Source: Gammaproteobacteria bacterium
Lineage (GTDB): Bacteria; Pseudomonadota; Gammaproteobacteria; UBA1113
Length of the DNA: 64,000 nt
Assembly: GCA_020051015.1 (NCBI GenBank)
Contig: JAGVJQ010000038.1
Span: 6,485 to 70,484, forward strand
Direction: 5' to 3'
Made by a program: the position numbers. Below are positions 36,901 to 39,900 of the stretch, piece after piece (the first letter of the stretch is position 1; each line of letters begins with the position of its first letter).

Positions 36901-39900
36901 CACGTCTGGAAGATCACCATCACTGGCCGAGTCTACGACAATTAGAAAAAACAGCAAATGCCATGGGAAAAAGATTAGTATTATCTTTTGTATAAGTATC
37001 CATTCTAACAATATTCTACTCAAAGCACCCACATTAAAAATTTCAAAGCCAGATACTGCCTGGTTTGAAGGGCGTCTCGAACCATGGATGGTATGGAGAG
37101 CGAGGCCATGGATGGCCGTCCCTGAAAACCAGGCAGTATCTGGCTTTGAAATTTTTAATGTGGAGTTCTGATATTCTACCGCCGCTTACTTGAAAAAATA
37201 ACGTAACTGATTTAATATTACACTATAGACTACATTTTGGTATTACAATTATGACAGTTATTACTCTTCGCTTACCCGAAAAACTATTGCATCAAGTCGA
37301 TAAACAAACGAAAAACTTACATATCTCGCGCGCCGAGTATATTCGTACTGCGATTGAAAAAATGAATAGTGCAATTGCAGCCGAAGCACAGAATCAGCGT
37401 TTACAAAAAATAAGCCTAAAGGTAAGAAAAGAAAGTTTAAAAGTAAATAAAGAATTTGATGAGATTGAAGATGACTCAGAATATTAAACACGGCGAAGTG
37501 TGGCTTGCCAATCTCAATCCAAATAAAGGAAAAGAGCCGGGGAAAACCAGACCTGTTTTAGTAATGCAACACCAAGCTTTACTGGATATTGAACATCCCA
37601 CCACTATTATTGTGCCATTAACCACAACACTGATTGATAATGCTAAACCATTACGACTAAGAATTAATGCTCAAGCGGAACTAAAACATGACTCTGATAT
37701 TTTAATTGACCAAATTCGCTCAATTGACAATAGAAGATTAAGTTATGGACCTTTAATGACTTGCTCGCCTGAATTTATGACCCAAGTTTATCAAGCTATA
37801 AATGAAGTAATGGGGACTGTTAGCTAAATAACAACCTATTCCACATGCACAATCAACGATTTCAAATAATCCGTTTCTTCAATAGCTGGATGAACTGGAT
37901 GATCAGGACCTTGGTGGCCTTGAATTAAAATCCGGGCATGACAATGCTGACGTCGTGCTGAGCTACGTACCACATCAATCAAGTCTTCGTAGCTTAAATG
38001 CATGGAACATGAAGCTGAAATTAAAATCCCTGGGTTTTTTAGTAATTTTAATGCTAATTCATTGATACGATGATACGCTTGTTTACCAGCCTCCATATCT
38101 TTACGACGTTTAATAAAAGCAGGTGGATCAAGAATAATGACATCGAATTGTTGCTGTGCAGTGATTAACTCATCCAGTGCTGCAAAAGCATCTTGTTCTA
38201 TGGTTGTTATTTTATCTTGTACATTATTTAATTCTGCATGTTGTTTGACTAATGCTAAGGCCTTGGCAGAGCTATCGATACACGTGACATGGGATGCACC
38301 AAAACAAGCCGCTTGAACACCCCAACCACCGATATAACTAAACACATCTAATACGCGTTTATCTTTTACAAACGACTTTAAGTTAGCACGATTTAAGCGG
38401 TGATCATAAAACCAACCCGTTTTTTGGCCCTCAAAAATGGGAGCCGTAAATTTAACGCCATTTTCTTCCATATTCACTAACGAGGTTGGATTACCAAAAG
38501 CCACTTCGGTATATTTTGGTAAGTTTTCCAAATCACGCGCGCCACCATCAGCACGAATTAAAATATGTTGTGGATTGAGAACAGCTTTAAGTGCGGCAAC
38601 AATCGTATCTTTTAGAGCCTCCATGCCTGCGCTATTGATTTGCATCACTAGAGTATCATTGTAACGATCAACAACTAAACCTGGTAAGCCATCACTTTCA
38701 CCAAATATTAATCGGTAGCAAGGTACAGCAAAATAACTATCACGAACTTGCAACGCTTTAGTAATTTTGTCAGCAAAAAAAGTGGTATTGATGTCAGCAT
38801 TCGGTTGCTCTGTCAGTAATCGAACACACAATAATACCGAGGGATTAATATAACCCGTTCCCAATGGTCTGCCACTATAGCTAGTGATATTCACCAATTG
38901 TCCGACCTTAAATGATTTTAATGGTGAACGTTGTACATCAATTTCATTGCTGTAAATCCACAGATGACCGGCACGTAATCGACGATCTTCATTTTTCTTC
39001 AGATAAACAATTGGATAATTCATACTGGCACCAACTTTGCAAATGAGGCAACTAACCACTTCGTTCCCTGCTTATCAAATCTTACTTGTACCCGTCTATG
39101 GGCGCCGTCACCTTCGAAATCTAAAATAACTCCCTCACCAAATAATTGGTGATAGACCCTTTGTCCTAACATTAAACCTTCATCATTAATGGCATCTGAG
39201 TCCATTGCCAAGCGTTTTAACGGACTTGCCGCCTTGATATTTTGCGAACGTAATCGTACTTCTTCATAACAATCTGGTGGTAATTCACGCAAGAAACGCG
39301 ATGGTCGATTGCGTGTTTCGCTACCATGTAAGCGTCTGCTTTCCGCAAACGTTAAATATAATTTTTGTCGTGCCCGTGTCATGCCTACATAACATAAACG
39401 TCGTTCTTCTTCTATTTGACGAGGATCTTGCAGACACATGTAATGAGGAAATAAACCTTCCTCCATACCGCACATAAACACCAATGGGAACTCTAATCCT
39501 TTAGCGGAATGCAATGTCATTAATTGGACGGCATTTTCATCCATTGCTTGCCGTTCGCCTGACTCTAATGCTGCATGGGCTAAAAATGCTGCCATAATCG
39601 GCATATCTTCTTCGGCATCATAGGCAAATAAACGTCCGGTATCAATTAACTCCGCCAAGTTTTCAATGCGCGCTTGCCCTTTTTCACCACGTTCTTGTTG
39701 GAAATGGGGAATTAATCCACTACGTTGTACAGCTAATTCCAGCATTTCATGTAATTCTAAATCAACAGCATCGGTCTGCATATCAGTAATTAATTTGGTG
39801 AATTGCGTTAAGGCATTGGTTGCACGACTGGTGAAATGATTGATTTGTAATAATTCCTGTGTCGCACGCCATAACGAAATTTGTTGACTACGTGCACATT

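What the first reader, a model, noticed from the sequence alone, without database searches (positions are those of the whole stretch)
37029..37163. Repeat family with a conserved GC-rich core enclosed by long, perfect hairpin arms that differ between the two copies
Copy 1 has 37-bp perfectly complementary arms around a 61-nt core. Copy 2 (48917-49022) has the same core, with 4 mismatches out of 61, but its arms have a different sequence and are again perfectly complementary. This is the reverse of a normal MITE, which has conserved ends and a variable interior. Both arms begin AAAGCC and end G(G/A)TT. The 11 nt in between are unrelated in the two copies (agatactgcct versus gtatgatataa), yet each is matched exactly on its own partner arm. 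Independent mutation cannot maintain perfect complementarity. Three explanations remain: the arms are generated by a templated process such as inverted duplication of the target on insertion, the element inserts into loops of pre-existing palindromes, or there is arm-to-arm conversion. The core contains two copies of CCATGGATGG, each able to form a small hairpin, giving a three-way-junction-like shape. No recombinase, reverse transcriptase or nuclease gene is adjacent to either copy.
Basis: partly seen in the sequence, partly recalled or inferred. Interest (0 to 1): 0.75.

Follow-up and report, generated by a model that had tools for sequence, protein, structure and literature searches.

The report
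Divergent TwoAYGGAY-type structured RNA repeat
The two hairpin repeats are real, but they are divergent copies of an already described bacterial RNA motif (TwoAYGGAY) whose long closing stem is free to change sequence as long as it stays paired, so the "variable perfect arms" are mostly ordinary; the motif's function is still unproven.

Summary
Copy 1 (37029-37163) has 38-bp perfect arms. Copy 2 (48918-49022) has 19-bp perfect arms. The 66-nt cores differ at 4 positions.

The element is not a new kind of repeat. Both copies have Rfam RF01731 (TwoAYGGAY RNA) as their best hit, at 35.8 and 24.8 bits, below the 43-bit gathering score. A covariance model built only from the two window copies recovers threshold-passing TwoAYGGAY RNAs at the same coordinates and strand.

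All the architectural hallmarks are present: a long closing stem P1, a tandem G.A loop, and two short hairpins with A-N-GGA-U loops. Those loops match the published CsrA/Rsm binding motif.

A P1 that keeps pairing but not sequence is the family norm. In 17 related elements every P1 pair shows compensatory changes, while the hairpin tips are invariant.

A third copy sits upstream of virB2 in a related metagenomic genome, in the opposite orientation. Another relative lacks the element, so it is sporadic and possibly mobile.

In Desulfosporosinus relatives, a 53-nt two-GGA-hairpin module is precisely present or absent in a hairpin loop.

Verdict: a new, sub-threshold member of a known class. Function (probably CsrA binding) is inferred, not shown. 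Interest is modest.

The parts
37029..37163 (+). Copy 1, the whole hairpin: 38-bp perfect arms around a 59-nt interior
   Evidence: MFE -89.5 kcal/mol, z -14.9. Rfam TwoAYGGAY 35.8 bits, E 2.8e-4.
37029..37044 (+). Copy 1, outer 16-bp arm extension (pairs with 37148-37163). It lies outside the unit shared with copy 2.
   Evidence: Homology between the copies starts at 37045.
37045..37066 (+). Copy 1, P1 5' strand (pairs with 37126-37147): AAAGCC, then an 11-nt variable stretch, then GGTTT
37067..37068 (+). Copy 1, GA of the tandem G.A/A.G internal loop (partner GA at 37124-37125)
   Evidence: Left unpaired in the MFE fold. Tandem GA is a described TwoAYGGAY feature (PMC4333381).
37069..37072 (+). 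Copy 1, P2 AGGG (pairs with CCCU at 37120-37123)
37075..37099 (+). Copy 1, hairpin 1: UCUC/GAGA base, ACCA/UGGU stem, loop UGGA at 37085-37088 (the AUGGAU motif)
37104..37117 (+). Copy 1, hairpin 2: GGCCA-UGGA-UGGCC, loop at 37109-37112
   Evidence: The GCCAUGGAUGGC sequence is the same as in the Rfam consensus.
37126..37163 (+). Copy 1, 3' arm (P1 3' strand plus the outer extension)
48918..49022 (+). Copy 2, the whole hairpin: 19-bp perfect arms, an A.C mismatch (48937 with 49003), then TTT/AAA, a tandem GA, P2 and two hairpins
   Evidence: MFE -50.8 kcal/mol, z -6.65. Rfam TwoAYGGAY 24.8 bits, E 0.078.
48949..48973 (+). Copy 2, hairpin 1, loop GGGA at 48959-48962 (AGGGAU, so the Y position of AYGGAY is G here)
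48978..48991 (+). Copy 2, hairpin 2: GGCCA-UGGA-UGGCC
37011..37019 (+). ATATTCTAC, the left copy of a 9-bp direct repeat bracketing copy 1 (right copy at 37171-37179). It may be a target-site duplication or chance.
   Evidence: family D7. No counterpart exists at copy 2.
37171..37179 (+). ATATTCTAC, the right copy of the 9-bp direct repeat
37190..37218 (+). Promoter-like site for the RHH/MazF toxin-antitoxin operon. It lies downstream of copy 1, so copy 1 is not in that 5' UTR.
   Evidence: a consensus match only
49171..49199 (+). Promoter-like site upstream of virB2, conserved in relatives L007 and L008. It lies downstream of copy 2.

Best explanation
The two loci are copies of a roughly 107-nt dispersed structured element that belongs to a divergent, sub-threshold branch of the TwoAYGGAY RNA class (Rfam RF01731).

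Read on the + strand, each copy folds into:
- a long closing stem P1;
- a symmetric tandem G.A/A.G internal loop;
- a 4-bp P2;
- a junction carrying two short hairpins whose loops read (C)CA-N-GGA-UG(G).

That loop sequence is the consensus hairpin bound by the CsrA/Rsm family of RNA-binding proteins. The two GGA triplets are 24 nt apart, a spacing that one CsrA dimer can bridge.

The most likely mode of action is as RNA. The rigid stem displays a high-affinity two-site CsrA/Rsm binding module, which either titrates the protein or recruits it to the transcript end that carries the module.

Sequence is constrained only where protein or tertiary contacts are made: the hairpin tips, the junction, the G.A loop and the AAAGCC/GGCTTT foot. 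The middle of P1 needs only to pair. It has therefore drifted by compensated changes, which is why the arms differ between copies yet remain complementary.

Shown here: family resemblance, the fold, covariation and sporadic distribution.
Inferred: transcription, strand, CsrA binding and the physiological role.

The confidence of 0.55 is for the whole statement. Taken separately, I put family identity at about 0.85, a pairing-only constraint on P1 at about 0.7, and CsrA binding at about 0.45.
For: Family identity:
- TwoAYGGAY is the best Rfam hit for both copies, with full-length alignments.
- Model R1 was built from the two window copies alone. It hits L010, L012, L021, L028 and L035 at 25-27 bits. 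Rfam calls TwoAYGGAY at 54-59 bits at the same coordinates and on the same strand.
- The family descriptions match: two terminal loops with AYGGAY and a very large P1 (Weinberg 2010 supplement), plus tandem GA and CsrA-motif matches (PMC4333381).

Fold and covariation:
- The fold was obtained independently for both copies.
- Between the two copies, 8 P1 pairs are changed on both sides, 98.7% of cells pair, and 1 of 500 shuffles does as well.
- All 4 core substitutions fall at unpaired positions.
- Across 17 relatives, 93.5% of cells pair and all 22 P1 pairs carry double changes. The covariation score is 0.735 against 0.176 for shuffles (0 of 500) and at most 0.12 for slid controls. The hairpin-tip pairs are invariant.
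- P1 has only about 3% G.U in those relatives, so wobble-free arms are unremarkable.

Other points:
- A third copy in relative L008 keeps the core (27/29, my count on the sequence) and has a related arm.
- The open reading frames through the two copies are in different frames, and the other frame has a stop in copy 2. The element is therefore not coding.
Against: - Both copies score below the Rfam gathering threshold (35.8 and 24.8 against 43 bits).
- No csrA gene lies in the window, and the rest of the genome could not be reached.
- No promoter-like site was found upstream of either copy. Both copies lie upstream of the predicted promoters of the downstream operons, so there is no evidence of transcription.
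- Folding energy hardly distinguishes the strands: -63.9 against -59.9 and -48.9 against -49.1 kcal/mol.
- The only arm mismatch, A.C in copy 2, would be a G.U pair on the opposite strand.
- The third copy is in the opposite orientation relative to virB2. That argues against a fixed cis-regulatory role for that operon.
- The 11-bp variable stretch of copies 1 and 2 is statistically indistinguishable from unrelated sequence: 3/11 identical, and 5 of the 8 double changes are transversion-type. Stepwise compensatory drift explains this less easily than block replacement does.
- CsrA binding to any TwoAYGGAY RNA is a published prediction, not a demonstrated fact.
Confidence: 0.55

Rival explanations
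1. This is a DNA-level mobile module. The two-hairpin core, or the 107-nt unit, is a small non-autonomous element that inserts into the loops of pre-existing hairpins such as terminators, in either orientation. Part or all of each arm would then be host-derived.
For: - The palindrome of copy 1 runs 16 bp beyond the unit shared with copy 2.
- A 9-bp direct repeat brackets copy 1.
- Among close relatives the element is present, absent or flipped. L007 has neither the element nor the 174-aa ORF between copA and virB2. L008 has a copy in the opposite orientation.
- This genome's own terminator-like hairpins are long, perfect and AT-rich with AAAGCC...GGCTTT feet, for example 42193-42222.
- The core is flanked by a TGAA...TGAA direct repeat (visible in the sequence).
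- In Desulfosporosinus relatives, a 134-nt element and a 187-nt element are 128/134 identical apart from one 53-nt two-GGA-hairpin module. That module lies exactly in a hairpin loop, with CC at both junctions. It occurs in hairpin A, hairpin B or both.
Against: - Both window copies share AAAGCC...GGCTTT at exactly the same distance from the core.
- The L008 arm is 14/20 identical to the arm of copy 2 (my count on the sequence; one search gives 85% over 48 nt of core plus arm). The inner arms therefore look inherited with the element.
- No empty site was found for this subfamily.
- There is no target duplication at copy 2.
- No transposase or integrase is among the tested neighbours.
- The Desulfosporosinus module has a different sequence and junction layout.
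Confidence: 0.25
2. The arms are kept perfect by arm-to-arm conversion. Intramolecular template switching during replication of a quasi-palindrome copies each new mutation onto the other arm. Complementarity would then be a DNA-level by-product and not the result of selection.
For: - There are 57 consecutive Watson-Crick pairs with no G.U.
- Five of the 8 double changes are transversion-type, which are hard to reach through paired intermediates.
- The core is flipped between similar arms in L008 compared with copy 2. Recombination or template switching between inverted arms would produce that.
- Quasi-palindrome correction is an established mutational mechanism (general knowledge).
Against: - Relatives show the same well-paired P1 with few G.U pairs. 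They also show some mismatches, as expected under ordinary selection.
- Copy 2 carries an uncorrected A.C mismatch.
- This mechanism does not explain why the core is conserved.
- Orthology of L008 and copy 2 is unproven, because the DNA between the element and the virB2 promoter does not align.
Confidence: 0.15
3. The hairpins are simply bidirectional intrinsic terminators, with an A-tract, a GC foot and a T-tract, whose loops happen to carry a decorated tip.
For: - The arms read AAAAGCC...GGCTTTT.
- Copy 1 starts 34 nt after the stop of the + strand ORF 36828-36995.
- Similar plain hairpins sit between genes elsewhere in the window, at 6309-6342, 42193-42222 and 44395-44430.
Against: - The terminator scan called nothing at either copy, although its loop limit is 8 nt.
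- Copy 2 lies between divergent genes, at no gene's 3' end.
- This reading does not explain a 66-nt core conserved across genomes, nor its match to TwoAYGGAY.
Confidence: 0.12
4. The two similar hairpins are protein-binding sites on single-stranded DNA, making the element a minimal IS200/IS605-type or REP/RAYT-type element mobilised in trans by an HUH transposase.
For: - The core has two near-identical hairpins in direct orientation.
- In Desulfosporosinus, insertion happens next to a fixed short sequence in single-stranded loops.
- A REPIN-like doublet exists elsewhere in the window, at 2199-2380.
Against: - The window has no tnpA or RAYT gene among the tested ORFs.
- The element has no GTAG-type tetranucleotide.
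- The CA-N-GGA-UG loop is conserved from 36% to 70% GC organisms. That fits a universal partner such as CsrA better than lineage-specific transposases.
Confidence: 0.05

Closest known systems
TwoAYGGAY RNA motif (Rfam RF01731; Weinberg et al. 2010, PMC2864571)
   Same: - Two adjacent hairpins with A-Y-GGA-Y loops on a common, often very long, closing stem.
- Tandem G.A.
- The hairpin-2 sequence GCCAUGGAUGGC is the same as in the Rfam consensus.
- Found in Gammaproteobacteria, with several dispersed copies per genome.
- The covariance-model hits are reciprocal.
   Different: - It scores below the gathering threshold (35.8 and 24.8 against 43 bits).
- It is much more compact than the extended Pseudomonadota form described in bioRxiv 10.64898/2026.09.22.753630.
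- A P2 plus a single tandem-GA loop encloses both hairpins.
- One loop is AGGGAU.
- The arms are perfectly Watson-Crick.
- No flanking 5-6-mer repeat arrays or REP arrays were seen.
CsrB/CsrC/RsmX/RsmY/RsmZ sRNAs and CsrA sites in mRNA leaders
   Same: GGA sits in the loop of short hairpins in a CANGGANG context. There are two sites at a spacing a CsrA dimer can bridge. This comparison rests on general knowledge of CsrA/RsmE recognition and on the prediction in PMC4333381.
   Different: There are only two sites and no recognisable promoter or sRNA gene layout. The hairpins are enclosed in a long stem. The element occurs in dispersed copies. Binding has not been tested for any TwoAYGGAY RNA.
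MITEs and REP/REPIN elements
   Same: It is short, intergenic, hairpin-forming and repeated. It is present or absent among close relatives, and copy 1 may have a 9-bp flanking repeat.
   Different: The pattern is the reverse of a MITE: the interior is conserved and the ends vary. There is no GTAG-hairpin REP signature and no cognate transposase nearby.
Integron attC sites
   Same: Structure is conserved while much of the paired sequence is free to vary, with short conserved blocks at fixed positions in the stem.
   Different: attC sites have conserved ends and a variable centre, are recognised as folded single-stranded DNA by an integrase, and sit next to gene cassettes. None of that applies here.

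Membership tests
TwoAYGGAY RNA (RF01731) | Two adjacent hairpins whose terminal loops contain AYGGAY | tested here: met
   Three of the 4 loops read AUGGAU. Hairpin 1 of copy 2 reads AGGGAU.
TwoAYGGAY RNA (RF01731) | A closing stem P1, often very long and nearly perfect | tested here: met
   38 bp and 19+3 bp.
TwoAYGGAY RNA (RF01731) | Tandem G.A motif(s) in a stem | tested here: inconclusive
   One symmetric GA/GA 2x2 loop lies between P1 and P2 in both copies. The literature mentions two tandem GAs. Geometry was not tested.
TwoAYGGAY RNA (RF01731) | Covariance-model score at or above the Rfam gathering score (43 bits) | tested here: not met
   35.8 bits and 24.8 bits. The gathering-mode scan of the window returned nothing.
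TwoAYGGAY RNA (RF01731) | Reciprocal similarity: a model of this element finds accepted family members | tested here: met
   R1 hits L010, L012, L021, L028 and L035 at 25-27 bits, E about 0.004. Rfam scores 54-59 bits at the same coordinates and strand.
TwoAYGGAY RNA (RF01731) | Covariation that supports the fold | tested here: met
   The two copies show 8 double changes. In 17 relatives all 22 P1 pairs covary, with 0 of 500 shuffles as good (on an alignment fitted to the model).
TwoAYGGAY RNA (RF01731) | Several dispersed copies per genome | tested here: inconclusive
   There are two copies in 64 kb, plus one in a relative (L008). The rest of the source genome was not retrievable.
CsrA/Rsm-binding RNA | GGA in the loop of a short hairpin, in an A(N)GGA / CANGGANG context | tested here: met
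   CCAUGGAUGG and CCAGGGAUGG with 4-nt loops.
CsrA/Rsm-binding RNA | At least two sites spaced so that one dimer can bridge them | tested here: met
   Start-to-start spacing is 24 nt (family D4). The bridging range comes from general knowledge.
CsrA/Rsm-binding RNA | A csrA/rsmA gene in the same genome | not testable with these tools
   None lies in the window.
CsrA/Rsm-binding RNA | Demonstrated binding or titration of CsrA | not testable with these tools
   This needs EMSA, ITC or CLIP.
CsrA/Rsm-binding RNA | Expression as an RNA (own promoter, or part of a transcript) | tested here: inconclusive
   No promoter-like site lies upstream of either copy. Copy 1 could be the 3' end of the 36828-36995 transcript.
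MITE | Terminal inverted repeats conserved between copies | tested here: not met
   The arms differ. Only AAAGCC/GGCTTT is shared.
MITE | Target-site duplication at each copy | tested here: inconclusive
   A 9-bp repeat lies 7-9 nt outside copy 1. Copy 2 has none.
Intrinsic terminator | A GC-rich stem followed directly by a U-tract, at the 3' end of a gene | tested here: inconclusive
   The scan found none. By eye, GGCUUU(U) follows the stem. Copy 1 is at a gene's 3' end and copy 2 is not.
REP/REPIN (RAYT-mobilised) | A GTAG tetranucleotide next to a short palindrome, often as inverted doublets | tested here: not met
   This element has no GTAG foot. A separate REPIN-like doublet lies at 2199-2380.

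The most novel reading that the evidence does not exclude
The two-GGA-hairpin core is a self-contained module that is copied into the single-stranded loops of existing hairpins, in either orientation. Targets would include terminators and the GGA loops of other TwoAYGGAY elements. The variable arms would then be wholly or partly host hairpins, and the element would be a hairpin-loop-targeting mobile RNA or DNA module that distributes CsrA-type binding sites around genomes. The Desulfosporosinus filled and empty pair, the extra outer palindrome of copy 1 and the flipped copy in L008 do not exclude this reading.
Probability: 0.2. Interest if true: 0.7.

Novelty: new member of a known kind. Interest (0 to 1): 0.3.

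Why it matters
TwoAYGGAY is a widespread bacterial RNA motif whose function is still unknown after more than 15 years. A 2026 preprint revived interest by showing large copy-number swings in Pseudomonas and suggesting both CsrA sponging and mobile-element-like spread.

The element here is one of the most compact versions: a 66-nt core on a plain stem. It comes from an uncultured, low-GC relative of Endozoicomonas and sits next to a toxin-antitoxin module and a VirB type IV secretion operon. That makes it a convenient minimal substrate for testing CsrA binding.

It also shows that the Rfam model misses divergent members.

The filled and empty hairpin pairs seen in passing in Desulfosporosinus would, if general, give the first concrete picture of how these modules spread.

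None of this changes the main point: the "variable perfect arms" are an expected property of a covarying closing stem.

Tried and rejected
Searches for further copies:
- The genome-collection scan with the 19-mer CCATGGATGGCCGTCCCTG returned only 5 hits, all in high-GC or unrelated organisms and evidently chance.
- A metagenome scan with a 23-mer of the core found nothing.
- Viral-contig scans with two core patterns found nothing.
- A plasmid BLAST of copy 1 found nothing.
- I searched the protein database with the five open frames of the core concatenated, hoping to catch spurious ORFs called across other copies. Nothing scored.
- Neither the 11-nt variable segments nor the arm sequences occur elsewhere in the window or in the relatives' loci L006-L009.

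Other tests:
- The rlmI loci of relatives (L006, L009), the copA-virB2 locus of L007 and three more distant virB loci (L156-L158) contain no element, even with filters off. The element is therefore not a conserved part of the virB leader.
- A small-protein reading was rejected, because the ORFs through the two copies use different frames.
- tRNA and tmRNA were excluded.
- No Rfam family passed the gathering score anywhere in the window.
- I tried to decide the strand from folding energy, but the two strands are nearly equal.
- Orthology of the L008 copy with copy 2 could not be settled. Only the core plus arm and the last 100 nt before virB2 align.
- A first count of G.U pairs against A.C mismatches in the closing stems of metagenomic relatives gave 175 against 12. 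I do not lean on it, because that set mixes elements and nested inserts lying on opposite strands.
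Full report
**The observation**

Copy 1 has perfectly complementary arms at 37029-37066 and 37126-37163. They are 38 bp long, not 37, and enclose 59 nt. Copy 2 has perfect 19-bp arms at 48918-48936 and 49004-49022, followed inward by one A.C mismatch and three more pairs.

The cores (TTTGAAGGGCG...CCCTGAAAACC, 66 nt) differ at four positions. The stretch that aligns between the copies is 107 nt, 37045-37151 against 48919-49025, at 79% identity. It has the layout AAAGCC, 11 variable nt, G(G/A)TTT, core, AAAACC, 11 variable nt, GGCTTT. The palindrome of copy 1 continues for 16 bp outside this shared unit.

Neither feature is chance. Folding z-scores are -14.9 and -6.65, and the core never recurs in shuffled sequence. 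Both copies are on the + strand, and a covariance model finds no third copy in the window.

**What it is**

A permissive Rfam scan of either locus gives one family as best hit, TwoAYGGAY RNA (RF01731). Alignments are full length: 35.8 bits (E 2.8e-4) for copy 1 and 24.8 bits (E 0.078) for copy 2. Both are below the 43-bit gathering score, which is why the default scan of the window was empty.

The resemblance is architectural as well as statistical. RNAfold gives the same fold for both copies:
- a long closing stem;
- a symmetric GA/GA internal loop;
- a 4-bp P2 (AGGG/CCCU);
- a junction with two short hairpins, ACCA-UGGA-UGGU and GGCCA-UGGA-UGGCC.

The family was named for two terminal loops carrying AYGGAY. 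[quoted passage not shown] A later paper notes tandem G.A pairs in the stem and strong matches of the loops to the CsrA-binding motif (PMC4333381).

To check the link in the other direction, I built a covariance model from the two window copies only (R1). It recovers elements in Pseudomonas-type prophage contigs at 25-27 bits. Rfam independently calls TwoAYGGAY at 54-59 bits at exactly those coordinates and on the same strand.

I therefore file the element as a divergent member of this class that fails the curated threshold. A 2026 preprint already reports that the Rfam model misses lineage-specific variants (bioRxiv 10.64898/2026.09.22.753630).

**The variable but perfect arms**

Between the two copies, 8 of the 11 variable pairs are changed on both sides and 98.7% of cells pair. 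All four core substitutions fall at unpaired positions.

Selection for pairing does exactly that, and it is the family norm. I aligned 17 related elements from metagenomic and viral contigs to R1. In that alignment 93.5% of cells pair and every one of the 22 P1 pairs shows double changes. The covariation score is 0.735, against 0.176 in shuffles (0 of 500 as high) and at most 0.12 when partners are slid. The pairs next to the GGA loops are invariant (the alignment is model-fitted, which favours the structure somewhat).

G.U pairs make up only about 3% of P1 cells in those relatives. Two stems with no wobble pairs are therefore not anomalous.

The arms are also not wholly unrelated. A third copy turned up at the end of a Logan contig from a relative whose VirB4 is 83% identical (L008). 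Its core matches 27 of 29 visible positions. Its arm is 14/20 identical to that of copy 2 and 13/23 to that of copy 1 (my counts on the sequence). The alignments over core plus arm give 85% over 48 nt with copy 2 and 82% over 51 nt with copy 1. This looks like a stem that evolves fast under a pairing constraint, set beside a core under sequence constraint.

**Context and distribution**

The window is chromosomal DNA of an uncultured gammaproteobacterium with 37.8% GC. Its nearest named relatives are Endozoicomonas, at 55-58% RlmI identity.

Copy 1 lies 34 nt after a small HTH-like ORF. It is upstream of the predicted promoter of an RHH/MazF toxin-antitoxin pair.

Copy 2 lies between a 174-aa ORF of unknown function on the - strand and the virB2-virB11 operon. 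It too is upstream of the predicted promoter, which is conserved in relatives.

In one close relative (L007) copA is followed directly by the virB2 promoter, with neither the 174-aa ORF nor the element. In L008 the element is present but in the opposite orientation, about 280 nt from virB2. Three more distant virB loci and the rlmI loci of two relatives have none.

The element is therefore sporadic and orientation-independent with respect to its neighbours. That argues against a dedicated cis-regulator of virB and fits a dispersed, possibly mobile repeat. No transposase, integrase or reverse transcriptase is among the neighbouring genes tested. MazF, an endoribonuclease toxin, is adjacent, but nothing links it to the element.

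**How it probably works**

The hairpin loops read CA-N-GGA-UG, the recognition hairpin of CsrA/RsmE-type proteins. The two GGA triplets are 24 nt apart, within the range a dimer can bridge (general knowledge).

The same CA-N-GGA-UG hairpins recur in elements from organisms of 36% to 70% GC. In some metagenomic loci they form tandem arrays reminiscent of CsrB/RsmZ sponges. That breadth suits a universal partner.

My best reading is an RNA that displays a two-site CsrA-binding module on a rigid stem. It would act as a decoy, or as a recruitment site at the end of the transcript that carries it. The AAAAGCC...GGCUUUU foot may also serve as a terminator.

The following are inferred and not shown: transcription, strand, binding, and the presence of csrA, which is absent from the window. 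Energies barely separate the two strands. The strand choice rests on the GGA loops, the tandem G.A (which would be U.C/C.U on the other strand) and the Rfam orientation.

**The rival that deserves attention**

The second metagenome scan returned a large family from Desulfosporosinus (taxon). There, a 53-nt two-GGA-hairpin module sits in hairpin loops.

Two copies of a larger repeat, L116 4080-4213 and L080 909-1095, are 128/134 identical apart from this one module. It lies exactly in the loop, GGACATCC|TTGTCC against GGACATCC[53 nt]CTGTCC. The module occurs in hairpin A, in hairpin B or in both in different copies.

Read on the other strand, the empty host is itself a threshold-passing TwoAYGGAY RNA: the hit at L136 959-1121 overlaps the empty element at 975-1105. 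The module is therefore inserted antisense into the CAAGGAUG loop of another family member.

Three features of the window element are compatible with it: the extra 16-bp outer palindrome, the 9-bp direct repeat ATATTCTAC at 37011-37019 and 37171-37179, and the flip in L008.

Against it, the window arms share their length and their AAAGCC/GGCTTT foot, no empty site was found, and the Desulfosporosinus module differs in sequence and layout.

I give this reading about 0.2-0.25. Arm-to-arm conversion by template switching could contribute to the perfection of the arms, but it could not be tested.

**Verdict**

The interpretation as a new, inverted-MITE-like repeat family is not supported as stated, because the core matches a known RNA class whose closing stem is known to be long and to covary.

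The element is a new, divergent, sub-threshold member of the TwoAYGGAY class. Its function remains inferred. Interest is modest (0.3). A more interesting minority reading, a hairpin-loop-targeting module, could be settled by a census of the full genome and its relatives.

Noticed in passing
L116 4080-4213, L080 909-1095, L136 959-1121, L128 1640-1930, L149 3405-3536, L092 8091-8291 (Desulfosporosinus metagenome contigs): A 53-nt two-GGA-hairpin module is precisely present or absent in the loop of hairpins of a roughly 131-134-nt repeat. The flanks are 128/134 identical and CC sits at both junctions. The empty repeat, read on the opposite strand, is a threshold-passing TwoAYGGAY RNA, so the module lies antisense inside the CAAGGAUG loop of another family member. 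It occurs in hairpin A, in hairpin B or in both.
   Followed up: partly
L116 2837-3132; also L047, L071, L142, L153, L147: There are further nested insertions exactly inside GGA loops. A different segment beginning ACTCGAACAGGACGTTCGAGATTAGAGC interrupts CCA(A/T)G|GATGG. GGA-hairpin loops therefore look like insertion hot spots in these genomes.
   Followed up: no
L051 2846-2985, L113 1506-1597, L150, L143, L061: These loci carry tandem arrays of CA-N-GGA-UG hairpins at a period of roughly 50 nt. The arrays resemble CsrB/RsmZ-type multi-site sponge RNAs, and Rfam does not annotate them at these positions.
   Followed up: no
window 2199-2380: This is a REPIN-like doublet: two inverted copies of GTAG followed by the palindrome GGGCGTATTGCATACGCCC. 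The arms are 43 nt and 88% complementary, with a 96-nt spacer. It lies in the intergenic region after the ORF ending at 2174.
   Followed up: partly
window 48250-49140 compared with L007 1395-1440: The 174-aa ORF of unknown function (48270-48794, - strand, no Pfam or NCBIfam hit) and copy 2 together form an indel. In the relative L007, copA is followed directly by the virB2 promoter.
   Followed up: partly
window 36405-37827: Copy 1 sits in a small accessory patch. It holds a truncated ORF6N-domain ORF (- strand), a 55-aa ORF resembling the C-terminal part of an HTH (XRE-type) antitoxin, and an intact RHH/MazF toxin-antitoxin pair. The virB locus of a distant relative (L156) also has toxin-antitoxin modules just upstream of virB2.
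   Followed up: no
window 6309-6342, 42193-42222, 44395-44430: Long, perfect, AT-rich hairpins (13-16 bp stems, 4-6 nt loops) flanked by A- and T-tracts lie between genes. They are apparently this genome's bidirectional terminators. One of them (42193-42222) has the same AAAGCC...GGCTTT foot as the element's arms.
   Followed up: partly
window 49225-49245: The mechanical virB2 ORF starts at 49225. An AAGGAG Shine-Dalgarno sequence 8 nt before the ATG at 49243 is conserved in L007 (L008 has a similar AUGGAG), so 49243 is the likelier start. This CA(A/U)GGAG also fits the A(N)GGA CsrA motif.
   Followed up: no
L010 1227-1313, L012 3360-3446, L035 3739-3825: Threshold-passing TwoAYGGAY RNAs in Pseudomonas-type viral contigs lie about 400-800 nt from a C4 antisense RNA (RF01695), that is, inside predicted prophages.
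   Followed up: no
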